Below, piece after piece: positions 1,679 to 56,654 of a stretch of 64,000 nt of DNA; position 1 is the first letter of the stretch; each line of letters starts with the position of its first letter. This DNA comes from Candidatus Eisenbacteria bacterium RBG_16_71_46 (GTDB taxonomy: Bacteria; Eisenbacteria; RBG-16-71-46). The stretch is taken from the NCBI GenBank assembly GCA_001780165.1, contig MFFQ01000026.1, forward strand, positions 10,113 to 74,112. The letters are read 5' to 3'. The notes beneath the pieces are model-generated. The model did no database searches. It had not been told where the DNA came from and worked only from the letters and a program-made list of their open reading frames with translations. The position numbers were made by a program, and so were the translations under genes.

Positions 1679-2697
1679 GGGTGCTGCACGCCCCGGCCGA
1701 GATCGCCGGGCAGGCCTCGACCCTGGCACGCGCGCTGCGCGGGCTCGGGGTCGAGGCGCATTCGCTCGCCTACAACCCGGGCTTCCCCCAGTACCAGCCC
1801 GACGAGATGCGCCCCTACGACGCGTGGCCGCCGCTACCGCGCTACGCCGGCTACCTGGCGGGCACGCTGCGCCACCTCGCGCGCTACGACGTCTACCACT
1901 TCCATTTCGGACGCACGCTCATCCCGCCGCACAACGTCGACCTGCCGCTCTACCACGCGCTGGGGCGCCGGGTGGTCTTCCACTACCACGGCTGCGACGT
2001 GCGCGACCGCGCCCACATGCTCGCCAGCCACGCGCGCGCGACCTGCACCGAGTGCGATCCGTTCTGCCGTCCCGCGCGCCAGAAGACCATCCTCGCGAGC
2101 GCGCGCCGCTGGGCCGACGCCGAGCTGGTGTCCACGCCCGACCTGCTCGAGAGCGCGCCGCGGGCGCAGCACCTGCCGGTCGCGGTGGACCTGGCGCTCT
2201 ATCCGTTCACGACGGCGCGGGCGGAGCCCCGGCTCGTGCTCCACGCACCCACCAACCGCCTCATCAAGGGCACGCGCTACGTCGAGGCGGCCTTCGAGCG
2301 GCTGCGGCCGCGGTTCCCCGGCGTGCGTTTTCTCACCGTCGAAGGGCTGCCGTGGAGCGGGCTGCGCGAGCTGATGGCGGACGCCGACGTGGTGGTGGAC
2401 CAGCTCTTCATGGGCTGGTACGGCATGGTGGCGGTCGAGGCCATGGCGCTCGGAAAGCCGGTGCTGTGCTTCATCCGCGAGGATTTCGAGCCGCGGCTGC
2501 GCGACTGCCCGGTGGTGCGCTGCACGGTGGAGAACCTCGCCGCGCGCCTCGAGGCGGTGCTCGGCGACGCGTCGCGGCGGGCGCGCCTGGGCGAGCAGGG
2601 TCGCGCCTACGCCAAGCGCGAGCACGCGGCGGCGGCGGTGGCCGAGCGCCTGGTCGCCCTCTACCGCTCGTTCCCCGGGAGTGCGGCGCGTGCGTGA
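1675..2697 (+). CDS. Glycosyltransferase family 4 (group 1 GT).
   Basis: GT-B C-terminal domain with EAMALGKPV. The GTG start overlaps the upstream stop (GTGA), which suggests translational coupling. Confidence 0.75.
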   Translation: MRVLHAPAEIAGQASTLARALRGLGVEAHSLAYNPGFPQYQPDEMRPYDAWPPLPRYAGYLAGTLRHLARYDVYHFHFGRTLIPPHNVDLPLYHALGRRVVFHYHGCDVRDRAHMLASHARATCTECDPFCRPARQKTILASARRWADAELVSTPDLLESAPRAQHLPVAVDLALYPFTTARAEPRLVLHAPTNRLIKGTRYVEAAFERLRPRFPGVRFLTVEGLPWSGLRELMADADVVVDQLFMGWYGMVAVEAMALGKPVLCFIREDFEPRLRDCPVVRCTVENLAARLEAVLGDASRRARLGEQGRAYAKREHAAAAVAERLVALYRSFPGSAARA

Positions 2698-4188: not shown

Positions 4189-6243
4189 ATGTGCGGGATT
4201 GCGGGGATGCTCGATCGCGGAGGCCGCGCGGACCTCGGCCGGCTGCAGCGCATGTCCACGCTGTTGCGCCACCGCGGACCGGATGACGAGGGCATCGTGC
4301 TGCTCGACGCCCGCAGCGGCGCGTGGCTGACCCTGGGCGGGGCGGACACGCCCGCCGACGGCTACGCCAGTGCGGTGCGCTACGCCCCGGGGCGCCACGA
4401 CGGCGACATCGCGCGCGCCAGCTACGGGGTCGGGCTCGCGCACCGGCGATTGTCGATCGTGGACCTGAGCCCGTCCGGCCACCAGCCGATGAGTCGCGCC
4501 GACGGCCGCAGCTGGATCGTGTACAACGGAGAGATCTACAACCACGTCGAGCTGCGCGCCGAGCTCGAGGGGCTGGGCGAGCGATTCGTCAGCAGCAGCG
4601 ACACCGAGGTGATCCTCGCCGCGTACCGCCGTTTCGGGCGCGGCTGCCTGGCGCGGTTCAACGGCATGTTCGCCTTCGCGCTGTGGGACGGCGAGCGGCG
4701 CGAGCTGTTGTGCGCGCGCGACCGGCTGGGGATCAAGCCCTTCTACTACCAGTACGACGGCGAGCGTTTCGTCTTCGCCTCGGAGCCGCGCGCGCTGGTC
4801 CTCACCCAGCCGCGCCGCATCGCGCCGCGCCTCGAGGCGGTGCGCGATCTGGTGGCGCTCGACTGGGTGGACCACGAGGCGCACACCTTCTTCGAAGGGC
4901 TGTTCCAGCTGCCGGCGGGACACGCGCTCACCGTGGGGGAGCAGGGCTTCGCCGTCCACCGCTGGTGGGAGCTGGATCCCTCGGCCAGCGCGCCGGGCGA
5001 TCCCGAGGACTGGGACCGCGAGTTCGAGCGCCTGTTCACCGATGCCGTGCGGCTGCGGCTGCGCGCGGACGTCGAGGTCGGCTCCTGCCTGTCGGGCGGG
5101 CTGGACTCCACCGCGGTGGTGACCACCGCCGCGCGGCTGGCCACGCGGCCGCTCCACACCTTCACCTGCGCCTACGAAGAGGGTCCCGCCTTCGACGAGC
5201 GGCCTTACATGCGCGCCGCGGTCGAGGCCAGCCGCGCCGCCTCGCACGTGGTGATCCCGGACGGCGCGGACTTCTGGAGCGTCTTCGACCGGCTCGCCGA
5301 GCATCAGGCCGAGCCCACCGCCGGGCCGGGGCTCTACTCGCAGTGGAAGGTGATGGAGCTGGCGCACGAGGCCGGACTCAAGGTGCTGCTCGACGGCCAG
5401 GGCGGCGACGAGACCCTGGCCGGCTATCCCCGCTACCTGCCGCTGCGCCTGCGCGACCTGCTCGCCGGCGCGCGGCTGATCTCGTTCGCGCGCCTGTTCG
5501 GCCCGGTCGCCGCGCGACTCGGCGCCACCACCACCCTGGCACTCGCGCTGGAGCCCTGGCTGCCGCCCGCGGTCGTGGCGCCGCTGCGGCGGCGTTTCGG
5601 TCAAGGGAAGGACCGCGTGCTCTCCCCCACGCTGCGCGCGCTGGAGCGCGGTGCGTTGCCGCGGCCGCCGGGCGGCTTCCGCACCGCGGTCGCGCGACAG
5701 ATGGCGTTCGATGCCCGGCAGCGCCTGCTCCCCTCGCTGCTCCGCTACGAGGACCGCAACAGCATGGCGTTCTCGATCGAGACCCGGCTGCCGTTCCTGG
5801 ACTACCGCCTGGTCGAGTTCGCCTTCTCGCTCAGGGACGGCGTCAAGCTCGAAGGGGCGACGACCAAGGCGATCCTGCGCCGCGCACTCGGCGACCGCAT
5901 CCCGCGCGCGGTGCTCGAGCGCCAGGACAAGATGGGTTTCGAGACCCCCACCGACGTCTGGCTGCGCAGCCGCTTCGCCGGAGAGGTGCGCCGGCGATTG
6001 CTCACGCCGGGGCCGCTCCACGAGTGGCTGGATCCCAAGACGCTGGGCGCGGAGCTCGAGGACTACCTCGCCGACCGGCGCGCGATCGGGCTTCAGGTGT
6101 GGCGCTGGCTCTCGCTCGATGCCTGGGCGCGACGTTTCCTCGAACGCGACCCCCGGGTGGCCGAGCGCGCGCCCGAGATCCCCCTCCACGCGGGAAGGCA
6201 CCAGTCCTACGTCGAGGTGATGCGCGCGCTGCAGGGCGCCTAG
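4189..6243 (+). CDS. asnB: Asparagine synthase (glutamine-hydrolysing), AsnB family amidotransferase.
   Basis: The N-terminus is MCGIAG, the Ntn glutaminase motif. The central region has the PP-loop motif SGGLDS. GGAG lies 8 nt upstream of the ATG. The 3190..6243 track ORF is an N-terminally over-extended version of this gene. Confidence 0.85.
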   Translation: MCGIAGMLDRGGRADLGRLQRMSTLLRHRGPDDEGIVLLDARSGAWLTLGGADTPADGYASAVRYAPGRHDGDIARASYGVGLAHRRLSIVDLSPSGHQPMSRADGRSWIVYNGEIYNHVELRAELEGLGERFVSSSDTEVILAAYRRFGRGCLARFNGMFAFALWDGERRELLCARDRLGIKPFYYQYDGERFVFASEPRALVLTQPRRIAPRLEAVRDLVALDWVDHEAHTFFEGLFQLPAGHALTVGEQGFAVHRWWELDPSASAPGDPEDWDREFERLFTDAVRLRLRADVEVGSCLSGGLDSTAVVTTAARLATRPLHTFTCAYEEGPAFDERPYMRAAVEASRAASHVVIPDGADFWSVFDRLAEHQAEPTAGPGLYSQWKVMELAHEAGLKVLLDGQGGDETLAGYPRYLPLRLRDLLAGARLISFARLFGPVAARLGATTTLALALEPWLPPAVVAPLRRRFGQGKDRVLSPTLRALERGALPRPPGGFRTAVARQMAFDARQRLLPSLLRYEDRNSMAFSIETRLPFLDYRLVEFAFSLRDGVKLEGATTKAILRRALGDRIPRAVLERQDKMGFETPTDVWLRSRFAGEVRRRLLTPGPLHEWLDPKTLGAELEDYLADRRAIGLQVWRWLSLDAWARRFLERDPRVAERAPEIPLHAGRHQSYVEVMRALQGA

Positions 6244-6386
6244 GCTCCGTTTGAAAACGCCCGGGGGCAAGGCGTCGCGGTCGCGCGAGGACGACCGTGG
6301 CCGACCACGCTGCGCGTGGTGCCCGGCCACGTCGGAGCGAGGAGCCGACCGCGCAACGTAGCCCTCGGGCGTTTTCGAACGGAGCC
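6243..6386. repeat. Palindromic repeat element, family A, copy 1, in inverted orientation relative to copies 2 and 3.
   Basis: The terminal inverted repeats are AGGCTCCGTTTGAAAACGCCCG and its complement CGGGCGTTTTCGAACGGAGCCT. An internal hairpin reads CGTGGCCG...CGGCCACG. The conserved core GGGCAAGGCGTCGCG is shared with 40308-40454 and 56518-56647. Confidence 0.85.
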
Positions 6387-6388
6387 TC

Positions 6389-7516
6389 GTGGACCTGGTC
6401 GTCCTGTCGGAAGTGCGCTGGAGCTACTTCCGCACCCGCAAGCAGTTCCTGCTGTCGCGCTTCCCCGAGCGCTGGCGCGTCTTCTACGCCCAGCCCCCCG
6501 CGGCGGGGACGGACGACCCGTGGCGAGCGCGGCGCGAGGGGCGCGTCACCTACTTCACGGTGCCGTTTCTCAAGCCCGGCACCACCCAGCCGCTGTACAA
6601 CCGGCTGATGCGGGCCGGCGCGGCGCGCGCCACGGTCGAGCGCTGCGCCGAATCCTGGCTGCGCCTGATGCTGGCGCGGCTCGGGGTCGAGCCGCGACCG
6701 GTGGTGCTGGCGTCCAACATCTACTGCCCCGGAGCGCTTTCGCGGCTGCCCCGGAAGTTGTTATTCTACGACTTCAATGACAGCCCACTGCAGTTCGCCG
6801 GGGTGCCGGCCTGGGCCCCGGACTACTGGCGCCGCACCCGCGACCAGGTGGACGCGTTCTTCGTCGTGTCCGAGTACTACCGGCGCGAACTGAGCGCGCA
6901 GACGCGGAGGCCCGTGATCCTGCTCGGTAACGGCGTCGAGGTCGACCACTTCCAGGCCCCGCGGGCGGTTCCGCCCGAGTTGGCGTCCCTGCCGCGCCCG
7001 CTCATCGGTTACGTCGGCCTGCTCTCGCATTTCCTCGATTTCGAGACGCTCGAGGCCCTGCGCCAGGCGCGCCGCGGCGGCACGCTGGTCCTGGTCGGCC
7101 CCGGCACCCCGGCCACCGACGCCGCGGTGCGGGAGCTGGCCGGGCGCGAGGGGGTGGCGGTCCTGGGCCCCAGGCCCTATGCGGAGATCCCGGCCACCAT
7201 GCAGGCCCTGGACGTCGGGGTCATTCCTTTTCGGGCGAACGATCCCTTCGTGCAGGGTATCAATCCCAATAAGGTCTACCAGTACCTCGCCTCCGGCCTT
7301 CCCGTGGTAACCACCCCGGTGCTCGATCTCGAACCCCGCCCTCCGCACCTTCAGTTCGCCGCCGGGCCCGCCGCGATGCGGGCGGCGGTGGAGCGGGCGC
7401 TGGACGCACCGCCGGATCGCGCGGCCCGCGTGGCGCTGGCCCGCTCCCACGATTGGGGAGGGCTCGCGAGCCGGATGGTCGAGGAGATCGAGCGGCGGAT
7501 CCCCGCGGCCGGCTGA
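6389..7516 (+). CDS. Glycosyltransferase family 1/4 (TuaH-like).
   Basis: GT-B fold with GYVGLLSHFLDFE and VIPF...NPNKVYQYLASGLPVV. The GTG start is 2 nt after repeat copy 1. Confidence 0.7.
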   Translation: MDLVVLSEVRWSYFRTRKQFLLSRFPERWRVFYAQPPAAGTDDPWRARREGRVTYFTVPFLKPGTTQPLYNRLMRAGAARATVERCAESWLRLMLARLGVEPRPVVLASNIYCPGALSRLPRKLLFYDFNDSPLQFAGVPAWAPDYWRRTRDQVDAFFVVSEYYRRELSAQTRRPVILLGNGVEVDHFQAPRAVPPELASLPRPLIGYVGLLSHFLDFETLEALRQARRGGTLVLVGPGTPATDAAVRELAGREGVAVLGPRPYAEIPATMQALDVGVIPFRANDPFVQGINPNKVYQYLASGLPVVTTPVLDLEPRPPHLQFAAGPAAMRAAVERALDAPPDRAARVALARSHDWGGLASRMVEEIERRIPAAG

Positions 7517-20443: not shown

Positions 20444-22575
20444 TTGGCCCACATGGACATGCGCAGGAGTCGGGTGCTGGTGGCTGCGGCCGGTCTGTTA
20501 CTCGGGCTGGCCCTGCTGTGGCTGCGCGCGGGCTGGCTCCAGCTCGTGATGCACGAGGCCTACGAGCAGCGGGCCGAGCGGAACCAGGAGCAGCGCGTCC
20601 TGATCAAGCCGGCGCGCGGCAATCTGTTCGACCGCTACGGGCGTCCCCTGGCGCGCGACCTACCCACCTATTCCATTTCCGCCGCCCCCGCGGAGATGCA
20701 GGACCCGCGCCGCACGGCGCGCGATCTCGCGCGGCTGCTCCATCTCGACCGCCGCCGGCTCGAGCGGCAGTTCGCCTCCCGCCCGCGATTCCTCTGGGTG
20801 GCGCGTCAGGTGCCCCCGGCGCCGGGGCAGGAGGTGGCGGGCTGGAGCCGGCGCGGCCTGTACGTCTCGATCGAGACCCGGCGCGAGTATCCGCTCGGCG
20901 CCGCGGCGGGAGAGATCATCGGCCGCACCAACGTCGACAACGAAGGGGTGGACGGTCTCGAGCTGCAGCTGGACGGTGACCTGCGCGGGAGGCCGGGCTG
21001 GGCCACCCTGATTCGCGACGGGCGCGGCCACTCCCACTCGCTGCCGCGCGGCCTGCGGCGCAGTCCCGAGGACGGCCGCAGCGTCGTGCTGACGCTGGAC
21101 GCGGACCTCCAGTCGATCCTCGAGTCGCACCTCGGTCACGTGGTGGACACGCTCAACGCCGAGCGCGGCTTCGCCCTGTTCATGGATCCTCGCACCGGCG
21201 AGGTGCTGGCCTCGGTGGGCGTGCCGCACCTGCCCCCGGGTCGGGCGCGCAACTGGACCATCACCGACCAGTACGAGCCGGGGTCGACCTTCAAGCTGGT
21301 GGTGGCCGCCACCGCGCTCGAGGAGGGGCTGGCGACGCCCGACCAGTGGTTCGAGGCGGCCGCGAACGGCGTGGGGCAAGTGGCGCCCGGCGCGGTGTTC
21401 CACGACGTTCACAAGGAGCCGCGCTACCGCTTCCGTGACGCCCTGCGCTGGTCGAGCAACATCGTCATGGGGCGCCTCGGCGTCCTGGTCGGCGACGAAC
21501 GCCTCTACCGCTACGCCACGTCGCTCGGCTTCGGCAGCATCAGCGGCATCGACTTCCCCGGCGAGGCGAGCGGCCGGCTGCGCAGCCCCGCCCAATGGTC
21601 CGCGCGCTCCGCCCCGACCATCGCGATCGGGCACGAGGTGTCGGTGACCCCACTGCAACTCGTGCTCGCCTACGCCTCGATCGCCAACGGCGGCCTGCTC
21701 ATGCAGCCGCAGCTGGTGCGCGAGGTGCGCACGGCCGAAGGCGAGGTCGTGCGGCGCTTCACGCCCCATGCCTCGCACCGCGTGTTCAGCGAGCGCACCG
21801 CGGCGCTCATGCGGGCGCTGCTGGCCGCGGTGGTGGACAGCGGCACGGCGCAGGCGGCCCGGCTACCGGGATTTCACGTCGCGGGCAAGACGGGCACGTC
21901 GCAGAAGTACGACGCCAGCATCGGCACCTACGCGCGCGGGAAGTACCTGTCCTCGTTCGTGGGCTTCGCGCCCGCCGAGGATCCGGTGCTGGTCGGCCTG
22001 GTGGTGATCGACGAACCCAAGGGCGGGCACTACTACGGGGGCGAGGTGGCCGCGCCGGTGTTCCGCAAGGTGATCGAGGACCTGCGCCGCGTGCCCCATG
22101 GCATGTTCGAGTACGACGCGAACCGCGTCGCCGCGCGCCCCCCGGCGCCGGCACCGGTGACGGTGCCCGACCTGCGGCTGATGGTGCCGGCCGCGGCGGA
22201 ACGGCGGCTCGCGGATCACGAGCTACGCGCCCGTTTCGAGGGCGAGGGCGCGCGCGTCCTCGCGCAGTCGCCGGCGTGCGGCGTGGCGGTGGGACGCGGC
22301 TCCAGCGTGACGATGTGGCTGGCCCCCCCGGTGGATTCGCTCGAGCGCTGCATGCCGGATCTCGCGGGTCTCAGCGTGCGCGAGGCCCTGCGCCGGCTGA
22401 CGAGGCTCGAGCTGCGCCCCCAGATCCTCGGCAGCGGCACCGTGGTGCGGCAGTCGCCCGCGGCGGGGACGGCGCTCGAGCCCGGCGCGGGCTGCCGCCT
22501 GTGGTGCGAGCCTGGCGTGCGGGCCGTCGGGCTCGCGCCGGCCCAGCCGGGTATCATGGCGCGAAACGGAGAGCC

Positions 22576-22579
<4 letters not shown>
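20444..22579 (+). CDS. ftsI: Peptidoglycan D,D-transpeptidase FtsI (PBP3-like) with a C-terminal PASTA region.
   Basis: STFK and KTGT transpeptidase motifs; an SSN motif is also present. The TTG start lies 6 nt after GGAGG. ATG at 20453 is an alternative start. Confidence 0.85.
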
Positions 22580-24044
<1,465 letters not shown>

Positions 24045-24051
<7 letters not shown>

Positions 24052-25466
24052 TCGCCGCGAGCTCGGCCGCGCCGGCGCTGACGCTCACCCGCGTGGCGCA
24101 GCTGGTGCACGGCGACCTCGTCGTGCGCCAGGTGCCGCGCGACGCCTCCGCGCGCGAGGCCTTCCTGCGCACCGCCATCGAGGGCGCGAGCATCGACACC
24201 CGCGCGCTCGAGCCCGGCCAGCTGTTCGTGCCGTTGCGCGGCGAGCATGCGGACGGCCACGACTTCCTCGACGAGGCGTTTCGCTGCGGCGCCGCCGCGG
24301 CGCTGTGCGAGCGGTCGCGCCACGCCGCCCTGGCCGGACGCGAGCCCGGACCGCTGATCGTGGTGGAGGACGTCACCGGCGCGCTGCTCACCCTCGCTCG
24401 GCGTCACCGCGAGGGCTGGCCGGGCCTGGCGCTCGCGGTCACCGGCAGCGCGGGCAAGACCACCACCAAGGACCTGGTGGCCGCGGCCTTCGCCAGCGCG
24501 GGGCCCACGCTCAAGACCGAGGGGAATCTCAACAACCAATGGGGCGTGCCGCTCACGCTGCTGCGGCTGCGCCCGGAACATCGGGTGGCGGTGGTGGAGC
24601 TGGCGATGAACCACCCGGGCGAGATCGCCGCGCTCGCGCAGGTCGCGTTGCCCGGCGCCGCGGTGATCACCAACGCCGGCAGCGCCCACCTCGAGCACCT
24701 GGGGTCCCTGGAGGCGATCGCGCGCGAGAAGGCGTCGCTGGCCTTCGCGCTCGCGCCCGGCGCGGTGGCGTTCGCGGGCGCGGATTCGCCGCGGCTGCTC
24801 GCGGCACTCTCCGGGGCGCCGTGCCGGATCGTGACCTACGGGTTCGCGCCCGCGGCCGACGTGCGCCCGCGGCACGTGGATGACCTCGGCGCCGAGGGCA
24901 GCCGCTTCGAGGTCGAAGGTTTCCCGCCGGTGCGGCTTCAGCTGGTGGGCCGCCATCAGGTCGCGAACGCGCTGGCCGCGATCGCGGTCGCTCGCGAATA
25001 CGGCCTCGATCCCGCCGCGGTGGCGCGGGCGCTCGAGACCCACCGCCCCGGCCGCGGGCGCATGGAGGTGCGACGCGCCCGAGGCGCGACGTTGCTGGTG
25101 GACTGCTACAACTCCAATCCCGAGTCCGCGCGCGCCGCGCTCGACACCCTGGCCGCGTGGCCGCGGGCCCGCCGGCGCATCGCCGTGCTCGGCGACATGC
25201 TCGAGCTCGGGCCCGAGGCTCCCGCCCTCCATCGCGCGGTGGGGGCGGCGGTGCGCGAGGCGGAGCTGTGGGCGCTGGGCCGCCACGCGGGCGACTACGG
25301 GGCCGGTGGCCGGAGCGCGGGGGTCGAGGTGCGCGAGTTCGCGGACCTGCCGAGCCTGCGTGCCGCCGTGGCCGGGGCCCTCGAGCGCGATGTCGTCGTC
25401 CTGCTCAAGGCGTCGCGCGGCGTGGCGCTCGAGCGCGTGCTCGAGGGCCTCGAGGCGGAGGGTTAG
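24045..25466 (+). CDS. murF: UDP-N-acetylmuramoyl-tripeptide--D-alanyl-D-alanine ligase MurF.
   Basis: Mur ligase P-loop GSAGKTTTK. It follows murE and overlaps it by 7 nt. Confidence 0.85.
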
Positions 25467-25470
25467 CGGC

Positions 25471-26562
25471 GTGTTCTACGAATGGGTCTATCCGCTCCAC
25501 GAGCTGCCCGGGCTCTCGGCGCTGAACGTCTTCCGCTACATCACGTTTCGCGCCGCGTACGCCGCGATCACGGCGCTGCTGGTGTGCTTCGTCCTGGGGC
25601 CGCCGATGATCGAATGGCTCCGGCGCGTCAAGCTCGGGCAGCGGGTGCGGGCCGAGGGACCGCAGAGCCACCTCGCCAAGGCGGGCACGCCGACCATGGG
25701 AGGCGTGCTCATCCTCGCCGCCATCGTGGTGCCGACGTTGCTGTGGGGCAACCTCCACTCGCGCCCGTTGTGGCTCGCGCTGCTCGCCACCGTCTGGCTC
25801 GGCGCGATCGGCTTCCTGGACGACTATTTGCGCGTCGTCAAGGGGTTCCCCAAGGGCCTGCTCGGGCGCTACAAGCTCACCGGGCAGTTCGCCATCGGGC
25901 TCGCGATCGGGCTGATTCTCGTGCTGTGGCCCGAGCCCGGGCTGCCGGGAACGACCACCCACGTCCCGTTCCTCAAGTTCCGCTTCATCGACTTCGGCTG
26001 GTTGTTCGTTCCTTTCGTGATCCTGGTGATCACCGGCGCCTCGAACGCCGTCAACCTCACCGACGGGCTCGACGGTCTCGCCTCGGGGTTGATGGCGATC
26101 GCCGCGCTGACCTTCGCCGGGATGTGCTACCTCAGCGGCCACATCAAGATCTCCGAGTACCTCAACATCAGCTACCTCCCCTATGGCGGGGAGCTCACCG
26201 TGTTCTGCGCGGCAGTGCTCGGGGCCTCGCTCGGCTTCCTCTGGTACAACTGCCATCCGGCCGACGTGTTCATGGGCGACACCGGGTCGCTCGCGCTGGG
26301 CGGCGCGCTCGGCACCGTGGCGGTGCTGATCAAGCGCGAATTCTGGCTGGTCCTGGTGGGCGGCGTGTTCGTCGCCGAGGCGATGTCGGTGATGCTCCAG
26401 GTCGCGTCCTTCAGGCTGTGGGGCCGGCGGGTCTTCCGCATGTCGCCGCTCCACCATCACTTCGAGCTCAGGGGCTGGGCGGAGTCGCGCGTGGTGCTAC
26501 GCTTCTACATCGTTGGGGCGCTGCTCGCCCTGCTCTCGCTCTCGACCTTCAAACTCCAATGA
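25471..26562 (+). CDS. mraY: Phospho-N-acetylmuramoyl-pentapeptide transferase MraY.
   Basis: NAVNLTDGLDGLA and HHHFEL motifs with about 10 TM helices. Confidence 0.9.
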   Translation: MFYEWVYPLHELPGLSALNVFRYITFRAAYAAITALLVCFVLGPPMIEWLRRVKLGQRVRAEGPQSHLAKAGTPTMGGVLILAAIVVPTLLWGNLHSRPLWLALLATVWLGAIGFLDDYLRVVKGFPKGLLGRYKLTGQFAIGLAIGLILVLWPEPGLPGTTTHVPFLKFRFIDFGWLFVPFVILVITGASNAVNLTDGLDGLASGLMAIAALTFAGMCYLSGHIKISEYLNISYLPYGGELTVFCAAVLGASLGFLWYNCHPADVFMGDTGSLALGGALGTVAVLIKREFWLVLVGGVFVAEAMSVMLQVASFRLWGRRVFRMSPLHHHFELRGWAESRVVLRFYIVGALLALLSLSTFKLQ

Positions 26563-27953
26563 CGATCGACGCCCGCCACCCGCTTCCCGGGACCCGACCG
26601 CTGGTGGTCGGCGCAGCGCGCTCGGGCCTGGCCGCGGCACGCCTGCTGCGCGCCCACGGCCTCGCGGTGCGGGTCTGCGACGCCCGCGCCGCCGCCGAGC
26701 GGCCGGAGGCGGCGCGGGACCTCGAGGCGCTCGGGGCCGAGACGCGATGGGGGCGCGACGACCCGGCGCTGCTCGAGGGCCGCGACTTCGTGGTGTGGAG
26801 CCCGGGCATTCCGGTCGCGCACCCCACCGCCGCCGCGGCGCGGGCGGCGGGCCTCCCGCTGCTCTCCGAACTCGAGCTCGGCTTCCTCGCCGCGCACGCC
26901 CCGCTGGTGTGCGTGACCGGCACCAACGGCAAGAGCACCACGACCGACCTGGTTGGCGCCATCCTGCGCGCCGCCGGGCGCGAGGTGGAGGTGTGCGGCA
27001 ACATCGGACGCGCCTTGTGCGACGTGGCGGAGTCGGTCGGGCCGACCGGGCTGCTGGTGGTCGAGGTGTCCTCGTTCCAGCTCGAGACCGTGGACCGGCT
27101 CAAGCCCTTCGTCGCCACCTGGCTCAACCTCACGTCCGACCACCTCGATCGCCACCACGACTTCGAGACCTACGGGGCTCTCAAGCAGAAGTTGTTCGCC
27201 CGGCAGGGCGAGGGGGACTACGCGGTGCGGAACGCGGACGATCCCGAGGTCGTCCGGCGGCGCGCCGGGGCCGCGACGCCGCTCGCGTTCTCCCGCCGCG
27301 GGCCGGTGGACGAGGGCGCCTGGCTCGAGGCCGGCGAGATCGCGCTGGCGTGGCGCGGGGGTACCGAACGCGTGCTCCCGTCGCGCGAGCTGCGGCTGCG
27401 CGGCCCGCACAACCTGGCGAACGCGCTCGCGGCCCTGGCCACGACCCTGCCGCTCGAGGTCGCTCCCGAGCTGCTGCGTCGCACGCTGCGGAGCTACGCT
27501 GGCCTCGAGCACCGGCTCGAGCTGGTGGCCGTCGTGGAGGGCGTCCAGTTCGTGAACGACTCCAAGGCCACCAACGTCGGTTCGCTCGAGGTGGCGCTCG
27601 CGAGCTTCGACGATCCGGTGGTGCTCATTGCGGGGGGACGCGACAAGGGACAGGACTTCGCGCCCCTCCTCGAGACCGTGCGCCGCCGCACTCGGCTGGT
27701 GGTGCTCATCGGCGAGGGTGCGGAGCGCATCACGACCGCGTGGCCCGGGGTGCCGGTCCGTCGCGCGGCGACGCTGGCGGAGGCCGTGGATCTCGGTTTC
27801 GACGCGGCCCGCGCGCAGGTCGCGGCGGGCGGCCGCGTGGTCCTGCTCTCGCCGGGGTGCGCGTCGTTCGACATGTTCTCGGACTTCGAGGATCGCGGCC
27901 GGCGTTTCAAGGCCGAGGTCACCCGTCTGCAGACGAAGGAGGCCCACACGTGA
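26559..27953 (+). CDS. murD: UDP-N-acetylmuramoylalanine--D-glutamate ligase MurD.
   Basis: Rossmann-like N-terminal domain followed by the GTNGKSTT P-loop. ATGA overlap with mraY. Confidence 0.9.
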   Translation: MTIDARHPLPGTRPLVVGAARSGLAAARLLRAHGLAVRVCDARAAAERPEAARDLEALGAETRWGRDDPALLEGRDFVVWSPGIPVAHPTAAAARAAGLPLLSELELGFLAAHAPLVCVTGTNGKSTTTDLVGAILRAAGREVEVCGNIGRALCDVAESVGPTGLLVVEVSSFQLETVDRLKPFVATWLNLTSDHLDRHHDFETYGALKQKLFARQGEGDYAVRNADDPEVVRRRAGAATPLAFSRRGPVDEGAWLEAGEIALAWRGGTERVLPSRELRLRGPHNLANALAALATTLPLEVAPELLRRTLRSYAGLEHRLELVAVVEGVQFVNDSKATNVGSLEVALASFDDPVVLIAGGRDKGQDFAPLLETVRRRTRLVVLIGEGAERITTAWPGVPVRRAATLAEAVDLGFDAARAQVAAGGRVVLLSPGCASFDMFSDFEDRGRRFKAEVTRLQTKEAHT

Positions 27954-32434: not shown

Positions 32435-32464
32435 CCGCGATGGCACAGGGAGGTGAGTAGGACC

Positions 32465-33703: not shown

Positions 33704-33795
33704 ACCCATCACCGCCTCACCCCTGGAGGGCGTCGCGCGGCCGGCGGAACGGCCGCCGCCGCGGGTCCGCCGGGGAGGGCACAGGGAGTGGTGCC

Positions 33796-34959
33796 ATGTT
33801 CGAGCTGGAGATCGAGACCACCTCGTCGGCGAAGCTCAAAGTCATCGGATGCGGAGGCGCCGGCGGCAACGCCGTCAACCGCATGATCGGCGCCGGCCTG
33901 CGCGGCGTGGAGTTCATCGTCGCCAACACCGACATGCAGGCGCTCAACCAGTCGCTGGCGCCCCACCGGATCCAGATCGGGCTCAACTCCACACGCGGTC
34001 TCGGGGCGGGGGGCGATCCGTCGGTGGGCCGGCGCGCCGCCGAGGAGGACGAGCCGGGGATCAGCGATGCCCTCAACGACAGCGACATGGTCTTCATCAC
34101 GGCGGGCATGGGCGGCGGCACCGGGACCGGCTCGGCGCCGGTGGTGGCGCGGCTCGCGAAGCAGACCGGGGCGCTGACCGTGGCGGTGGTGACCAAGCCG
34201 TTCCTCTTCGAGGGCCGGCGCCGCATGCGGCAGGCCGAGGAGGGGCTCGCGGAGCTGCGCGCCGAGGTCGACACCCTGATCGTCATCCCCAACGAGCGCC
34301 TGCTGGCGGTGGTCGAACGCGGCACCGCGCTGTCGGAGGCCTTTGCCGTGTGCGACGAGGTGCTGCTCAAGGCGACCAAGGGCATCTCCGACCTGGTGAC
34401 GGTTCCCGGGCTGGTCAATCTGGACTTCGCCGACGTCAAGGCGGTGATGTCGAACCGCGGCAATGCGCTGATGGGCACCGGCCGCGCCTCGGGGCCGTCG
34501 CGCGCCGCCGAGGCGGCGCAGGCCGCGGTCTCGAGCCCGCTGCTCGAGGACGTCTCGATCGCCGGCGCCGAGGGGGTGCTGGTCAATATCACCGGCGGGC
34601 GCGACCTCACGCTGCACGAGGTCAACGAGGCCGCGGGGGTGGTGGTGAGTGCGGCGGGAGACGACGCCAACGTCATCTTCGGGGCGGTGATCGATCCCAA
34701 TCTGGACGGCGAGATGATCCTCACCGTGATCGCCACCGGATTCGGGGCCACCGAACCGCGGCTCAAGCTGCTCGATCGCACACGTGCCGCGGTCGCCGCC
34801 GCGACGCCCCGCGCCGGGGAGGACGAGGAGGACCTGCGTCACCCGCAGCCGTGGAAGCGCGGCGAGGAGAGCGCCGCGCGGCCCAATCGCTGGGGCCGCA
34901 GCGCCACGCGCGGCGAGTCGCTGGAGGTGCCGACATTCCTGCGCAAACAGATGGACTAG
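33796..34959 (+). CDS. ftsZ: Cell division GTPase FtsZ.
   Basis: Tubulin signature GGGTGTG and the NTDMQAL motif. A C-terminal variable linker is followed by a conserved tail. Confidence 0.95.
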
Positions 34960-35230
34960 GGCGCCGTCCGCACACGCCCGCGGGTCAGGCGCCGCGGGGG
35001 TCGCTTCCGTCGGGCGCGGTGCTCGACGCGCCCACCCTCCCTGGCTCCTGCGCGTCTGCGGAGCTCGCGCGGAGGTCCCCGCCCGCGGAGGCCCGCCGGG
35101 CACGGAGCACGATGCAAGCGACGCCCGCGACGCCTCGTCCGCGGGCGCTCGAGAACGGCGCCCGGAGCGTGTCGCGAGGCCGAACGCGGCGCGGTGAAAG
35201 GAGGGGGAGCTGGGCTTCTTCTCTACTCTG

Positions 35231-39498: not shown

Positions 39499-39572
39499 AA
39501 GCGGAGTTTCCACTGCGGGGGTTTTTGCGGCAGAATGCCGCCATGGGCAAGCCCGCACGCAAGCCGGACTCC

Positions 39573-40118
39573 ATGACCGTCAGCTGTCCCCACTGCTCGA
39601 GCCGCTACCTTCTGCCCGAACGGCTCATGGGGAAGGCCGGGGCGAAGGTGCGCTGCCCCCAGTGCCGCAAGGCCTTCGTGGTCAGGAGCCCGGCCCCGGC
39701 CGATGAGAAGGCCTCCGGAGCGGCGCCCATCGAAGTCCCGCCGCCGGCCGAGGCGAAAGCGGCGGTGATCGCCACCGACGTTTCGGAGCCGGCCGAGGAG
39801 CAGCCCGCGGCGCGCGAGCCCCTGGAGGCCGGGACCGCGACCCACGGCCGCGCCGCCGCCGGGCCGGAGCCCCCGCCCGGTGCGAGCCCGGCCGAGATCG
39901 CCCGCATCCTGCTCGACGATCTGAACGCGCGCTCCGGCGAGGCCATGGTCCAGGCCCTGGCGCGCGGCCATCTGTTCGCGGAATTCGGGCGGGACCTGGT
40001 GGCCGTCTTCGAGGAGTACCGCCGGCGCGCGGGCCCCGAAGCCGGCTCGGGGCCTTTCCGCGAAGCGCTCCGCGAGCGGTGGGGAGTGGACCTGAGCCCG
40101 GTGGCCGACAAGGACTAG
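39573..40118 (+). CDS. MJ0042-type zinc-ribbon domain protein with a Pro/Ala-rich linker.
   Basis: N-terminal CPHC-x14-CPQC zinc ribbon (MTVSCPHCSSRYLLPERLMGKAGAKVRCPQCRKAFVV), then a low-complexity linker and a C-terminal helical region. ATGs at 39495 and 39543 are alternative upstream starts. Confidence 0.55.
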   Translation: MTVSCPHCSSRYLLPERLMGKAGAKVRCPQCRKAFVVRSPAPADEKASGAAPIEVPPPAEAKAAVIATDVSEPAEEQPAAREPLEAGTATHGRAAAGPEPPPGASPAEIARILLDDLNARSGEAMVQALARGHLFAEFGRDLVAVFEEYRRRAGPEAGSGPFREALRERWGVDLSPVADKD

Positions 40119-40307
40119 CCTGGACTATTCAGTGCGCCGCCTGCGACCGCGATCTGCGCGCCATCCGCGGCGTCGTTCCACCGGCCGCTTCCTCGACGTG
40201 AGCGACACGGGACCCGCTTCGCGGGTGCCCCTCGCGGCCGGTGGAACTCCTTGCGGCTGTCGCGCATCTCGCGGTCTCGGCTGGCGGTTCATGAATAGTC
40301 CAGGCTA
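40116..40307. repeat. MITE-like palindromic element B (192 bp) with perfect 16-bp terminal inverted repeats.
   Basis: The left end is TAGCCTGGACTATTCA and the right end is its exact reverse complement TGAATAGTCCAGGCTA. The interior is itself a long imperfect palindrome. Its first three nt, TAG, form the stop codon of the zinc-ribbon gene. Confidence 0.75.
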
Positions 40308-40454
40308 GGCTCCGTCCGCAAACGCCCGCGGGCTGCGTTGCGCGGGCGGCTCTTCGCTCCGACGTGGCCGGGCACCGCGCGCAGCGTGGTCGGCCACGAC
40401 TCCGCTCCTCGCTCGACCGCGACGCCTTGCCCTCGGGCGTTTGCGAACGGGGCC
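40308..40454. repeat. Palindromic repeat element, family A, copy 2.
   Basis: GGCTCCGTCCGCAAACGCCC...GGGCGTTTGCGAACGGGGCC. The core matches copy 3 and the reverse complement of copy 1. It directly abuts element B. Confidence 0.85.
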
Positions 40455-54046: not shown

Positions 54047-54463
54047 ATGTCCAGCCAAAAACTGGTGCGTTGCGAGTTGCGTCCCCGGGGAAAGAACGCG
54101 CCGGGCTCCCCGCGCTACATCCCGCTCGAGATCTTCGGTCTCTGGGAATACATGATGAGCACCAAACACGCCTTCGAGGTGCTCGACGCCCGGGCCTCGC
54201 TGTGGCTGGACATGGAAGACTCTCCGGAGGCGGCTTACAGCGCGGGCCAATACGAGCGGGTGACCGAGGTCACGGCGTTCGTCTATTCGGGCCGCGACGA
54301 GATGTTCACCCGGGCCTGCCGCTACTTCCCCTCGGAGCAGATCGACCACCTCAAGCCGATCTTCCTCTCCCACTACCAGGACAATGGTTCCAGGCTCCAG
54401 ACCCAAGTGCGCGAGCGCGTGGGGATCTGGCTCCACCGCGACTCCACCACGACCACGATCTGA
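54047..54463 (+). CDS. Hypothetical protein.
   Basis: 138-aa ORF with GGGAGGA 7 nt upstream of the ATG. No recognisable motif. About 410 nt of non-coding sequence with GC-rich hairpins follows it. Confidence 0.4.
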   Translation: MSSQKLVRCELRPRGKNAPGSPRYIPLEIFGLWEYMMSTKHAFEVLDARASLWLDMEDSPEAAYSAGQYERVTEVTAFVYSGRDEMFTRACRYFPSEQIDHLKPIFLSHYQDNGSRLQTQVRERVGIWLHRDSTTTTI

Positions 54464-56062: not shown

Positions 56063-56518
56063 ATGCGCCACTCGACTCTGCTCGCGGCACCCGTCCTGAT
56101 GATCGCCCTCGCGCTGCTCGCGGGACCCACGGCGGCGCAGTCGCCGCTCGGCATGCCCGCGCTCGGCGCGTACTCGCCCAGAGTCCCGGTGACCGGACTC
56201 GGCCTCGCGAGTTGGTTCGACCCCTCGCGCCTCCATCTGTCCACGTCGGTGAGCGTGGGCACGGGCTTCGGCGGCGGCGCCCAGGGGCTGCAGGTCACCA
56301 GCCTGAACTACCAGTTCCGCGCGCCGATGACGATGAGCGTGAGTCTCGGCAACGCCCTCGGCGGCCCCGCCGGCGCCCGTGGCTCCTCGATCTTCCTCGA
56401 GGGCCTGCGCATGGCCTACCAGCCGAGCCCGTCGATGCTCTTCCAGATCCGCTACCAGGATCTCCGCTCGCCGCTGCAGTACCAGTCCTCACCGTACGAT
56501 CCCTTCCGGTTCCACTAG
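56063..56518 (+). CDS. Small secreted protein with a signal peptide (hypothetical).
   Basis: MRHSTLLAAPVLMIALALLAGPTAAQSP looks like a Sec signal peptide with an AXA site. A promoter-like TTGACT-17-TACCTT lies upstream. Confidence 0.45.
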   Translation: MRHSTLLAAPVLMIALALLAGPTAAQSPLGMPALGAYSPRVPVTGLGLASWFDPSRLHLSTSVSVGTGFGGGAQGLQVTSLNYQFRAPMTMSVSLGNALGGPAGARGSSIFLEGLRMAYQPSPSMLFQIRYQDLRSPLQYQSSPYDPFRFH

Positions 56519-56647
56519 TCTCTGTCTGGAAAGGCCCGAATGGCTGCGTTGCGCGGTCGGCTCCTCGCTCCAACGTGGCCAGAAGGCCACGATTCCGCTC
56601 GTCGCTCGACCGCGACGCCTTGCCCTCGGGCGTTTCCAGACAGAGCC
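56518..56647. repeat. Palindromic repeat element, family A, copy 3.
   Basis: AGTCTCTGTCTGGAAAGGCCC...GGGCGTTTCCAGACAGAGCCT. It has the shared core and a shorter internal hairpin (CGTGGCCagaaGGCCACG). It lies between the secreted-protein stop codon and the trpA start. Confidence 0.85.
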
Positions 56648-56654
56648 TGATCGG

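What the first reader, a model, noticed from the sequence alone, without database searches (positions are those of the whole stretch)
6243..6386. Three-copy palindromic repeat family with compensatory substitutions in the terminal stem.
Three elements of 130-147 bp share a conserved core. The copies are 6243-6386 (inverted), 40308-40454 and 56518-56647. The core includes GCTGCGTTGCGCGG.CGGCTC.TCGCTCC.ACGTGGCC and CGCTCGACCGCGACGCCTTGCCCTCGGGCGTT. Their 20-nt terminal inverted repeats differ between copies but stay self-complementary. The left arms read tttgaaaa, tccgcaaa and tctggaaa, and the right arms read ttttcgaa, tttgcgaa and tttccaga. This covariation points to selection on the stem (RNA or DNA hairpin), not recent copying. 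An internal hairpin, CGTGGCC(G)-loop-(C)GGCCACG, is also kept, with loop lengths from 4 to 20 nt. The ORFs that span the copies share a peptide (GHVGA[RK]SRPRN[VA]A.GR.RTEP). That peptide is a repeat artefact and not a protein. I do not recognise this as a named REP, BIME or MITE family.
Basis: seen in the sequence. Interest (0 to 1): 0.8.

Follow-up and report, generated by a model that had tools for sequence, protein, structure and literature searches.

The report
Stop-codon-seeking palindromic mini-transposon family
The three repeats are real copies of a small, GC-rich, hairpin-forming mobile element (a MITE) of the uncultured soil phylum Eisenbacteria; it lands on the TA of rare CTAG/TAG stop codons, and its outer stem keeps changing in matched pairs, so it is a new family of a well-known kind of element, not a new kind of system.

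Summary
Three 130-147 bp copies sit at the stated coordinates in a 72.8% GC window from Candidatus Eisenbacteria RBG_16_71_46. Public scans yielded 63 distinct full copies at 56 sites, all true genome hits in Eisenbacteria MAGs. The terminal helix covaries strongly: 20 of 27 pairs change on both sides, and 203 cells are compensated against 71±8 in shuffles.

The anatomy is that of a non-autonomous transposon:
- Terminal inverted repeats flanked by TA (consensus CTA|GGCTCC…GGAGCC|TAG).
- An orthologous empty site (CTAGTG) in two other Eisenbacteria genomes.
- Truncated copies, tandem dimers and a longer variant.
- At 44 of 56 sites one end coincides with a gene's TAG stop codon; CTAG is 16-fold depleted here and is found mostly at stop codons.

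Compensation appears between paralogous lineages (50% of differing pairs) but not between orthologous copies (0 of 11). G·U and A·C mismatches are balanced (44:48). So pairing is kept or produced during propagation; there is no sign of in-situ selection on one RNA strand.

I found no Rfam family, no transposase and no named family that match. The window also holds a fourth, longer relative (34959-35163) and a second unrelated palindromic element (40118-40305). Verdict: new member of a known kind, moderate interest.

The parts
6243..6386 (-). Copy c1 (long-apex form). It lies between the TAG stop of asnB (6241-6243, where TA comes from the flank and G is the element's first base) and the GTG start of a group-1 glycosyltransferase at 6389.
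   Evidence: The empty orthologous site is shown.
40308..40454 (+). Copy c2 (long-apex form). It is stacked directly on the family-B element and shares the TA at 40306-40307 with it. A convergent gene ends at 40488.
56518..56647 (+). Copy c3 (short-apex form). Its left end forms the TAG stop (56516-56518) of a 151-aa hypothetical gene. The trpA start (ATG at 56655) lies 7 nt after the element.
34959..35163 (+). A fourth, longer relative with the same kind of arms (GGGCGCCGTCCGC... / ...GAACGGCGCCC) and the same right inner block (GACGCC) but a different interior of about 130 nt. It follows the TAG stop of ftsZ directly (34957-34959). A remnant of a dimer-type left arm (GGAGCGTGTC) comes after it.
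   Evidence: Weak nhmmer hits, sequence and fold, and an alignment with the long variants in L138 and L114.
40308..40331 (+). Left arm of the covarying terminal stem in c2. It pairs with 40431-40454.
40431..40454 (+). Right arm of the covarying terminal stem in c2.
40363..40398 (+). Apical hairpin CGTGGCC...GGCCACG in c2, carrying the 18-nt nested-hairpin insertion. Copy c3 has the 4-nt loop form at 56574-56591.
   Evidence: the loop-closing pair 66-87 covaries: GC 19, UA 19, CG 11.
40118..40305 (.). Family B, a second and unrelated palindromic MITE-like element (GCCTGGACTATTCA...TGAATAGTCCAGGC). It is flanked by TA on both sides and sits on the TAG stop of the Zn-ribbon gene 39525-40118.
   Evidence: DNA dG -75.4, z -9.98; further copies in L130, L129, L113, L109.
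6241..6243 (+). A TAG stop codon formed from the target TA plus the first base of the element. The same arrangement occurs at 56516-56518, 34957-34959 and 40116-40118.

Best explanation
This is a family of non-autonomous transposons (MITEs) of Candidatus Eisenbacteria. Copies are 129-151 bp long and 66-75% G+C, and each is one long imperfect palindrome.

Shown:
- Copies are flanked by TA. The ancestral ends read CTA|GGCTCC...GGAGCC|TAG.
- They insert at the TA of CTAG.
- In this 73% GC genome CTAG is 16-fold depleted and survives mostly as '..C TAG' stop codons. As a result, about four in five copies sit exactly on a gene's stop codon, which is rebuilt as TA plus the element's first G.
- Elements stack on each other's regenerated TA sites, giving dimers and the family B + c2 pair.
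- The unused TAG end often reads CCTGG or CCAGG.

Inferred:
- Movement is catalysed in trans by a transposase that I did not find. A TA-duplicating DDE enzyme of the IS630/Tc1-mariner type is the simplest candidate.
- The outer 24-bp arms carry little sequence-specific information, whereas the asymmetric inner core is the conserved part. The core holds two direct CTCNTCGCTC motifs in an internal loop beside the apical hairpin.
- Only lineages whose arms still pair go on to make new copies. The reason would be either that the active intermediate is a folded single strand or cruciform, or that pairing makes an insertion next to a stop codon tolerable.
- Once inserted, a copy decays by one-sided changes.
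- As a by-product, the element places a very stable hairpin directly after the stop codon, and a GGAG 4-11 nt before the next start codon in c1 and c3. This may affect mRNA 3' ends or translational coupling, but none of that has been shown.
For: Family and host:
- 11 true copies among genome contigs, all in Eisenbacteria MAGs.
- 59 metagenome loci, giving 70 full copies, 63 of them distinct.
- The window protein P0121 is named Candidatus Eisenbacteria bacterium RBG_16_71_46.

Mobility:
- The asnB->glycosyltransferase junction is empty in L142 and L143 (..CTAGTGGAC..). In the window it reads CC-TA-[GGCTCC...GGAGCC]-TC-GTGGAC, which is a TA duplication with one later change.
- The c3 junction is empty in L157 (TAG, then 13 nt, then GTG).
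- TA is present at the left end of 51 of 63 copies and at the right end of 26 of 63, with a further 15 reading TG.
- The C before the right-hand TAG stays C whatever base precedes the left-hand TAG, so the repeated unit is TA and not NTAG.
- Truncated copies, tandem dimers and long variants occur.
- L113 carries a different subfamily, in the opposite orientation to c2, next to the same family-B end.

Target:
- 44 of 56 independent sites have an element end exactly on a called gene's stop codon.
- The window has 528 TA, of which 13 are in stop codons, and only 10 CTAG against 157 expected. Six of the 10 are stop codons and 3 are element ends.

Hairpin constraint at the level of lineages:
- In paralogous pairs, 6939 of 13891 differing stem pairs are compensated. 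In strict orthologous pairs the figure is 0 of 11.
- The arms are twice as diverse as the core columns not forced by my pattern (0.254 against 0.126).
- G·U 44 against A·C 48.

Known kind: bacterial MITEs are under 200 bp, carry TIRs, have 5'TA3' at their termini, make target-site duplications, and give transcripts that fold into long stem-loops (Delihas 2008, PMC2229807).
Against: - No transposase, and no longer element with matching ends, was found in about 1 Mb of related loci. The enzyme family is therefore an inference from the TA flanks alone.
- A dsDNA-binding DDE transposase does not by itself explain why the two arms must stay complementary at variable positions.
- A tyrosine (HUH) enzyme that inserts 3' of CTAG and cleaves an element-borne CTAG would mimic a TA or CTAG duplication. 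One filled/empty pair cannot separate the two models.
- TA is intact at both ends in only 19 of 63 copies.
- The element is oriented non-randomly towards the abutting gene (31:11, p=0.003). A symmetric TA insertion does not predict this, so some selection acting at the level of the transcript is likely.
- Gene calls come from my own GC3-based caller.
- The metagenome copies were found with a pattern that fixes 35 core bases.
Confidence: 0.62

Rival explanations
1. REPIN-like element mobilised as a folded single strand. A tyrosine HUH transposase (RAYT or IS200/IS605 type) would recognise the hairpin and its conserved asymmetric internal loop, cleave at CTAG, and insert 3' of a CTAG in the target. 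The apparent TA/CTAG 'duplication' would then be one target copy plus one copy carried by the element.
For: - Complementarity is maintained between propagating lineages but not in situ. [quoted passage not shown]
- The inner core is conserved while the stems vary.
- Copies are extragenic, lie next to gene 3' ends, and occur in tandem clusters.
- The left TA is better kept than the right TA.
- The orientation bias is 31:11.
Against: - There is no conserved GTAG. The base before TAG is C in about 70% of copies.
- The most conserved parts are internal, whereas in REPINs the ends are conserved and the spacer varies.
- No RAYT-like gene was seen next to any copy, although this was not tested with a profile.
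- Non-tandem copies in the same locus point the same way 4 times and opposite ways 5 times, so there is no strict replication-strand orientation.
- The TA-flanked TIR anatomy matches classical TA-duplicating MITEs.
Confidence: 0.2
2. A host-function structured RNA or 3'-UTR device. The hairpin would be selected because it acts in the transcript, for example as a 3'-end stabiliser, a terminator, an RNase III site, or a translational-coupling module that releases a GGAG when the ribosome reaches the TAG at the base of the stem. Spread by transposition would be secondary.
For: - The hairpin is very stable and starts at the stop codon.
- The orientation bias towards the upstream gene is 31:11.
- The preferred orientation puts C/U-rich loops in the mRNA. 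The other orientation would put GGAGCGAGGAGC there (read from the sequence).
- In c1 and c3 the next start codon lies 2 and 7 nt after the element, with a GGAG or AGAG in the 3' arm.
- c1 is tolerated between two genes that overlap (TAGTG) in the empty state.
Against: - There is no excess of G·U over A·C, either on the consensus strand (44:48) or on the mRNA strand (19:13, not significant).
- Orthologous copies accumulate unpaired changes, and only 13 of 63 stems are perfect.
- The T-run after the stem is not conserved. It covaries with the A-run (TTTTC, TTTGC, TTCTC, TCCCC), and the terminator scan finds nothing at c3.
- Distances to the downstream start are mostly tens to hundreds of nt.
- There is no Rfam match.
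- The site is empty in related genomes with the same operon.
Confidence: 0.13
3. The complementarity is produced mechanically and not by selection. In this model, template switching within quasipalindromes, or arm-to-arm conversion during replication, copies a change from one arm into the other.
For: Every arm variant, including a nearly complete replacement, is matched in the other arm while the core is unchanged. In L052, GGAGTAGAGCGGGGACG pairs with CGTCCCCGCTCTACTCC. Template-switch mutation in quasipalindromes is an established process in bacteria (my own knowledge, not checked here).
Against: - Orthologous copies show 11 one-sided and 0 corrected differences.
- The conserved bulges and the asymmetric internal loop of the inner stem are not 'perfected'.
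- The median stem carries 2 mismatches.
Confidence: 0.05

Closest known systems
Correia / NEMIS elements of Neisseria
   Same: Both are 100-155 bp non-coding repeats with long TIRs (24-26 bp) and TA at the termini. Both occur next to genes, come in long and short forms that differ by an internal segment, and give transcripts that fold into long hairpins. No transposase has been assigned to either (PMC2229807; the remaining details are from my own knowledge).
   Different: There is no sequence similarity. The Eisenbacteria element is GC-rich and not A+T-rich. No IHF site was looked for. Its outer arms are the variable, covarying part, whereas in Correia elements the arms are the conserved part. 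About 80% of its copies sit exactly on a stop codon.
ERIC / IRU (RU-1) of enterobacteria
   Same: Both are imperfect palindromes of about 127 bp over their whole length, with TA ends. Both lie in transcribed intergenic regions, and both have larger variants made by internal insertions at fixed sites (PMC2229807 and PMC2759123).
   Different: The sequences are unrelated. The ERIC TIR is short (7 contiguous bp). ERIC shows no reported stop-codon or CTAG targeting. The host phylum and base composition are different.
RUP of Streptococcus pneumoniae (IS630-Spn1-dependent MITE)
   Same: Both insert at a TA target, have TIRs, and are about 107-150 bp long. RUP is the best precedent for trans-mobilisation by an IS630-family transposase (PMC2229807).
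   Different: For RUP, the TIRs match a known IS. Here no parent IS was found, so the IS630 assignment rests only on the TA flanks.
REPINs (REP doublets forming hairpins) with RAYT transposases
   Same: Both are long hairpins made of inverted halves. Compensatory changes keep the hairpin in both. Both are extragenic and form tandem clusters, and in both the propagating entity is the unit under selection (PMC3116915).
   Different: REPINs have conserved ends and a variable spacer, which is the reverse of this element. They also have a GTAG-type motif, no target duplication, and an adjacent RAYT gene. None of these last three features was found here.

Membership tests
Bacterial MITE (Correia/ERIC/RUP type, as defined in Delihas 2008, PMC2229807) | Small size (under about 200 bp) and multiple copies in unrelated genomic contexts | tested here: met
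   Copies are 129-151 bp. There are 63 distinct copies at 56 sites with different flanks.
Bacterial MITE (Correia/ERIC/RUP type, as defined in Delihas 2008, PMC2229807) | Terminal inverted repeats | tested here: met
   There are 24-27 paired terminal positions, and 91.5% of cells in helix 1 are paired.
Bacterial MITE (Correia/ERIC/RUP type, as defined in Delihas 2008, PMC2229807) | 5'TA3' at the termini and a target-site duplication | tested here: met
   TA is present on the left in 51 of 63 copies, on the right in 26 of 63 (plus 15 TG), and on both sides in 19 of 63. One filled site can be compared with two empty orthologous sites; the result is consistent with a TA duplication plus one substitution. 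This rests on a single informative site.
Bacterial MITE (Correia/ERIC/RUP type, as defined in Delihas 2008, PMC2229807) | No protein encoded | tested here: met
   Indels between copies are 1, 2, 3 and 18 nt long. No protein cluster shares words with the spanning 'peptide'. No ORF lies inside an element.
Bacterial MITE (Correia/ERIC/RUP type, as defined in Delihas 2008, PMC2229807) | A+T-rich sequence | tested here: not met
   The copies are 66-75% G+C in a 72.8% GC window. This feature describes low-GC hosts and has no mechanistic role.
Bacterial MITE (Correia/ERIC/RUP type, as defined in Delihas 2008, PMC2229807) | Presence/absence polymorphism (evidence of mobility) | tested here: met
   The asnB->GT junction is empty in L142, L143 and L144. 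The hypothetical->trpA junction is empty in L157. These genomes share only 57-75% amino-acid identity with the window, so no close-strain polymorphism has been seen.
IS630 / Tc1-mariner-derived MITE | TIRs that match those of an autonomous IS630-family element in the same genomes | tested here: inconclusive
   No solitary arm next to a transposase, and no 0.7-3.5 kb element with matching inverted ends, was found in about 1 Mb of loci. Whole genomes could not be searched.
IS630 / Tc1-mariner-derived MITE | Duplication of exactly TA | tested here: inconclusive
   The evidence is the same as for the TA feature above. It cannot be told apart from Y1-type insertion 3' of CTAG using one site.
REP / REPIN with RAYT | A conserved GTAG-type tetranucleotide at the 5' foot of each REP | tested here: not met
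   The base before TAG is C in about 70% of copies and G in about 16-20%. The empty site shows that the TAG belongs to the target.
REP / REPIN with RAYT | Conserved ends with a variable spacer that keeps the hairpin | tested here: not met
   Here the pattern is reversed. The arms are the variable, covarying part (diversity 0.254) and the inner core is the conserved part (0.126).
REP / REPIN with RAYT | An associated RAYT gene flanked by the repeats | not tested
   The loci were not scanned with a Y1-transposase profile. None of the annotated neighbours is a transposase.
Described structured RNA family (Rfam 15) | A match to a curated covariance model | tested here: not met
   There are 0 hits at gathering score over the whole window. 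The only hit at E up to 5 across family B + c2 is a chance mir-187 match (E 2.8), and it lies in family B.
Intrinsic (Rho-independent) terminator | A short GC-rich stem followed by a conserved U-run | tested here: not met
   The terminator scan finds 0 sites around c3. The T-run in the 3' arm is replaced by TTTGC, TTCTC or TCCCC, together with its partner bases.

The most novel reading that the evidence does not exclude
The element spreads through a folded single-stranded (or cruciform) intermediate. A protein would read its conserved asymmetric internal loop (two direct CTCNTCGCTC motifs beside the apical hairpin) and require only that the outer 24 bp pair. This would be a hairpin-dependent mobilisation system that still leaves TA/CTAG repeats and homes to stop codons, and it would match neither classical DDE MITEs nor REPIN/RAYT. 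A related possibility is that Eisenbacteria have co-opted the element as a stop-codon-adjacent RNA module that affects 3'-end stability or translational coupling.
Probability: 0.15. Interest if true: 0.6.

Novelty: new member of a known kind. Interest (0 to 1): 0.35.

Why it matters
This is, as far as I could find, the first repeat family described for Candidatus Eisenbacteria, a phylum known only from metagenomes. It has three practical consequences:
- The elements break and mis-join assemblies. Locus L087 joins the left flank of one site to the right flank of another.
- They can generate spurious ORF calls.
- They mark TAG stop codons.

It also gives an unusually clean example of two general points. 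First, in a very GC-rich genome a TA/CTAG-specific element is funnelled onto stop codons, because those are almost the only CTAG sites left. Second, the 'covariation' of a mobile hairpin can be located at the level of propagating lineages and not of resident copies, using the contrast between orthologous and paralogous copies. This is a caution for anyone who reads covariation in multicopy elements as proof of a functional RNA. If the hairpin turns out to be required for mobilisation, the family would be a tractable model alongside REPINs.

Tried and rejected
About 70 of its 82 loci were chance matches in other GC-rich phyla, so the family's absence outside Eisenbacteria is not established.
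- Searching the protein database with the spanning 'peptide' to harvest more copies found nothing.
- Rfam at gathering score and at E up to 5 found nothing relevant. The plasmid collection gave no match.
- The search for a parent IS found only a solo-arm remnant (L134 9792-9814), an arm-like sequence near the end of L100, and chance inverted repeats.
- Looking up the exact c3 upstream protein in 9 assemblies gave only filled sites from the same organism.
- The idea that the element generally donates a Shine-Dalgarno sequence to the next gene was rejected. It fits c1, c3 and L126, but most downstream starts are 40-400 nt away.
- The idea that older copies (more core changes) have more stem mismatches found no support (Spearman -0.09, p=0.49).
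- A 4-bp NTAG duplication was rejected, because the right-hand C does not follow the base before the left TAG.
- Protein coding, attC sites, retron ncRNA and a CRISPR array were considered and dropped on anatomy: no ORF conservation, the conserved part is the centre and not the ends, and there is no RT and no array.
- My first GC3 gene caller missed many genes and called antisense frames. I replaced it.
Full report
**1. The observation**

Each runs from GGCTCC to GGAGCC: 6243-6386 (reverse orientation), 40308-40454 and 56518-56647. They align at 83% mean column identity. A profile built from them finds only these three in the window at E 1e-45 to 1e-52, and each also matches its own reverse strand because the whole unit is an imperfect palindrome. 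A covariance model run with filters off again finds exactly three (E 1e-31, 1e-24, 3e-24; the next hit has E 0.07). Each copy folds into one long hairpin on either strand (-81 to -108 kcal/mol; z -5.8 to -9.7; no shuffle folds as well). The window is 72.8% G+C.

**2. Host and wider family**

The 151-aa protein upstream of copy c3 is identical to one named 'Candidatus Eisenbacteria bacterium RBG_16_71_46'. The asnB gene upstream of c1 has its best homologues in Eisenbacteria/Eiseniibacteriota MAGs.

I ran two public scans:
Profile search showed that true copies were present only in 11 loci, all from Eisenbacteria MAGs.
- A metagenome scan with a two-block pattern gave 59 loci.

Together these yield 70 full-length copies, 63 of them distinct, aligned as A2 with 152 columns.

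One caveat applies throughout. The two blocks GCGCGGNCGGCTCNTCGCT and CGACCGCGACGCCTTG were required by my search pattern, so their invariance in A2 is not evidence of conservation.

**3. Covariation**

I counted pairs on the full-hairpin structure. Helix 1 (columns 1-29 with 125-152) has 27 pairs, and 20 of them change on both sides. Examples:
- Pair 8-145: CG 36, UA 17, AU 4.
- Pair 11-142: CG 31, UA 25.
- Pair 14-139: AU 48, CG 12, GC 2.
- Pair 15-138: AU 32, GC 22.

Over the whole structure there are 203 compensated cells, against 70.6±8.4 in shuffles (0 of 500 reach the observed value) and 15-34 when the partner columns are slid by 1-3. One copy (L052) has arms that differ from the common type at 9 of 15 positions (GGAGTAGAGCGGGGACG / CGTCCCCGCTCTACTCC) yet pair perfectly, and its core is unchanged. 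The loop-closing pair of the apical hairpin also covaries (GC 19, UA 19, CG 11). The inner helix (columns 31-46 with 107-121) does not vary, largely because of my search pattern, so it says nothing either way.

**4. What kind of element it is**

Several features mark it as a mobile insertion.

(a) *Ends.* The consensus is C-TA-GGCTCC...GGAGCC-TA-G. TA is present at the left end in 51 of 63 copies and at the right end in 26 of 63, with another 15 reading TG. The C before the right-hand TAG remains C whatever base precedes the left-hand TAG, so it belongs to the element and the repeated unit is TA, not NTAG.

(b) *Empty sites.* In two other Eisenbacteria genomes (three loci) with the same operon (polysaccharide synthase - asnB - group-1 glycosyltransferase - YfhO-like), asnB and the glycosyltransferase overlap by one base..CC TAG TG GAC CTG.. 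(L142) and ..CC TAG TG GAT CTC.. (L143). The window reads ..GCC TA[GGCTCC...GGAGCC]TC GTG GAC CTG... This is the element plus a second copy of TA that has since changed to TC. The c3 junction (hypothetical gene -> trpA) is empty in a more distant relative (GG TAG, 13 nt, GTG).

(c) *Degenerate and composite forms.* There are 5'- or 3'-truncated copies, tandem dimers whose second unit has its own conserved left-arm variant (GGAGCGTGTCCGAG...), and a variant of about 205-270 nt with the same arms and right inner block but a different interior.

(d) *Independent hits at one site.* L113 carries a different subfamily, in the opposite orientation to c2, next to the same family-B end.

No ORF lies inside any form.

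**5. Stop-codon association**

I called genes with a codon-position GC model and merged copies that share both flanks into 56 independent sites. At 44 of these sites, one end of the element coincides exactly with the stop codon of a called gene (31 at the consensus-left end, 11 at the right end, 2 at both). The stop is always TAG, made of the flanking TA plus the element's first G.

All four A-type elements and the family-B element in the window trace to four TAG stops: asnB, ftsZ, a Zn-ribbon protein and a hypothetical protein.

The explanation is target availability. The window has 528 TA dinucleotides, only 13 of them in stop codons. It has only 10 CTAG where base composition predicts 157. 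Six of the 10 are stop codons and three are element ends. An element that prefers TA in a CTAG context has almost nowhere else to land without destroying a gene. About 70% of left flanks have C before TAG.

The unused end often reads CCTGG (right, 15 copies) or CCAGG (left, 5 copies). Both are the same CTAGG->CCAGG change seen from opposite strands. This resembles the very-short-patch-repair bias known from E. coli, but that comparison comes from memory and I did not test it.

**6. Where the compensation happens**

Eight pairs of copies share both flanks, meaning the same site in different samples. They differ at 11 stem positions, all one-sided, with none compensated. Between paralogous copies, 6939 of 13891 differing stem pairs (50%) are compensated double changes. 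Only 13 of 63 copies have a perfect 22-bp stem, and the median copy has two mismatches.

Mismatches that would be G·U on the consensus strand (44) and on the opposite strand (48) are balanced. Oriented by the abutting gene, the count is 19 G·U against 13 A·C on the mRNA strand (p=0.38).

So new lineages arise with paired arms and resident copies then decay. There is no signature of an RNA selected on one strand. The arms are twice as diverse as the core columns my pattern did not force (0.254 against 0.126). This reverses the usual MITE pattern, in which the transposase-binding ends are the conserved part. The conserved core holds an asymmetric internal loop with two direct CTCNTCGCTC motifs on either side of the apical hairpin.

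**7. Mechanism**

*Shown:*
- The element is a TA-flanked, TIR-bearing, non-coding mobile insertion.
- It homes to CTAG/TAG.
- It is present or absent at orthologous sites in related genomes.
- Arm complementarity is a property of propagating lineages.

*Inferred:*
- Mobilisation in trans by a transposase I did not find. I looked for solitary arms and for 0.7-3.5 kb units with matching inverted ends in about 1 Mb of related DNA and found only remnants.
- TA duplication is the hallmark of IS630/Tc1-mariner and of several bacterial MITEs (PMC2229807; PMC2170065, listed), so that is the default candidate.

A dsDNA-binding DDE enzyme does not explain why variable arm positions must stay complementary. 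Three possibilities remain:
- The active form is folded (single strand or cruciform).
- Only foldable insertions are tolerated next to stop codons, so only they persist long enough to seed new copies.
- The enzyme is of the HUH tyrosine type, as for REPINs, where compensatory changes are also common (PMC3116915).

The last option is weakened by four observations: no GTAG motif, the reversed conservation pattern, the TA-flanked TIR anatomy, and the lack of a consistent orientation among non-tandem copies in one locus (4 the same, 5 opposite). One filled/empty pair cannot exclude it.

**8. Possible effects on the host**

The orientation towards the abutting gene is biased 31:11 (p=0.003). A symmetric TA insertion does not predict this. 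In the preferred orientation the mRNA carries the C/U-rich version of the internal loops, whereas the other orientation would carry GGAGCGAGGAGC. Avoidance of Shine-Dalgarno-like sequence just after a stop codon is a plausible reason, but I did not test it.

In c1 and c3 the next start codon lies 2 and 7 nt beyond the element, with GGAG or AGAG in the 3' arm. In the empty state, the c1 gene pair is translationally overlapped. A ribosome stopping at the TAG at the base of the stem could free that GGAG. This arrangement is not general, because most downstream starts are tens to hundreds of nt away.

The element is not a canonical terminator. The T-run in the 3' arm covaries away (TTTTC, TTTGC, TTCTC, TCCCC), and a terminator scan finds nothing at c3.

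**9. Comparison with known families**

There is no Rfam match at gathering score over the window. Only one chance hit appears at E up to 5, and it lies in family B. The plasmid collection gives no match. Full-text searches found no paper on repeats in Eisenbacteria.

By anatomy the element meets the published description of bacterial MITEs: under 200 bp, TIRs, terminal TA, target duplication, and transcripts that fold into long stem-loops (PMC2229807). The exception is that it is GC-rich. The closest analogues:
- Correia/NEMIS: long TIR, TA ends, long and short forms, transposase unknown.
- ERIC: a whole-length palindrome with insertion variants.
- RUP: TA target, IS630-dependent.
- REPINs, for the covariation.

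I file it as a new family of a known kind. Membership of the IS630-derived subclass is not established.

**10. The 'peptide'**

Most of the six frames are open across the copies, as expected at 73% GC. Copies differ by indels of 1, 2, 3 and 18 nt. A search of 5.8 billion protein clusters found no sequence sharing even three 5-residue words with the peptide.

**11. Verdict**

Novelty: new member of a known kind. Interest 0.35. The stop-codon homing and the orthologue/paralogue contrast are neat and useful, but a specialist in bacterial repeats would not be very surprised.

Noticed in passing
window 40118-40305 (TA at 40116-40117 and 40306-40307): A second, unrelated palindromic MITE-like element ('family B': GCCTGGACTATTCA...TGAATAGTCCAGGC, 188 nt) folds as one long hairpin (DNA dG -75.4, z -9.98). 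It sits on the TAG stop of gene 39525-40118 and is stacked directly against copy c2. Further copies or ends occur in L130, L129, L113 and L109.
   Followed up: partly
window 34959-35163: A longer relative of the studied element lies directly after the TAG stop of ftsZ. It has the same arms and right inner block but a different interior, and it resembles the long variants in L138 (about 1880-2159, minus strand), L119 (from 13175) and L114 (about 2700-2900). A remnant of a dimer-type left arm (GGAGCGTGTC, 35164-35173) follows it.
   Followed up: partly
whole window; CTAG at 4171, 6240, 33700, 34956, 40115, 40305, 46601, 56515, 60337, 61021: CTAG occurs only 10 times where base composition predicts about 157, a 16-fold depletion. 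Six of the 10 are stop codons. Across the called genes of all the loci analysed, stop codons are TGA 244, TAG 169 and TAA 13.
   Followed up: partly
alignment A2, columns 1-2 and 151-152 (for example L132, L083, L105, L117 on the left; L061, L003, L119, L116 on the right): Element ends not used as stop codons often read CCAGG (left, 5 copies) or CCTGG (right, 15 copies) where CTAGG or CCTAG is expected. This is the same CTAGG->CCAGG change seen on opposite strands. It is reminiscent of Dcm/Vsr-type very-short-patch repair bias, which I did not test.
   Followed up: no
L131 2149-2409, L134 1367-1645, L101 2475-2657, L138 6367-6568, L110 and L094 right flanks: Tandem dimers occur in which the second unit has its own conserved left-arm variant (T-GGAGCGTGTCCGAGC.CCG...), different from the first unit's left arm. 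This suggests that the dimer itself propagates as a unit.
   Followed up: partly
L087 1879-2011 compared with L016/L039/L104 and L041/L141: L087 joins the left flank of one insertion site to the right flank of another, across the element. This is either an assembly chimera at the repeat or recombination between copies.
   Followed up: no
L155 952-1142 (MAG GCA_040961615.1): A degenerate relative of the element (right part ..GGTCGCCTTGCACTC..GTGATTTCAGACACCGCC) follows the TAG stop at the orthologous hypothetical->trpA junction. It contains a different nested palindrome. It could be an old orthologous insertion or an independent hit. The same MAG has the asnB site empty.
   Followed up: partly
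window 6375-6391 and 56636-56657: In c1 and c3 the next gene's start codon (GTG at 6389; ATG at 56655 according to public gene calls) lies 2 and 7 nt after the element. The only Shine-Dalgarno-like sequence (GGAG or AGAG) is therefore inside the 3' arm of the hairpin.
   Followed up: partly
window 54445-54485 and 54847-54887: A 41-nt inverted repeat (76% complementary) has its arms 361 nt apart in a 386-nt intergenic region. It is unrelated to the studied family.
   Followed up: no
window about 20444-34959: This stretch is a complete division/cell-wall (dcw) cluster. Three or four Mur ligase paralogues share the GxxGKT motif repeats reported as direct repeats D1 and D3, and the cluster ends with ftsZ (33796-34959).
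   Followed up: no
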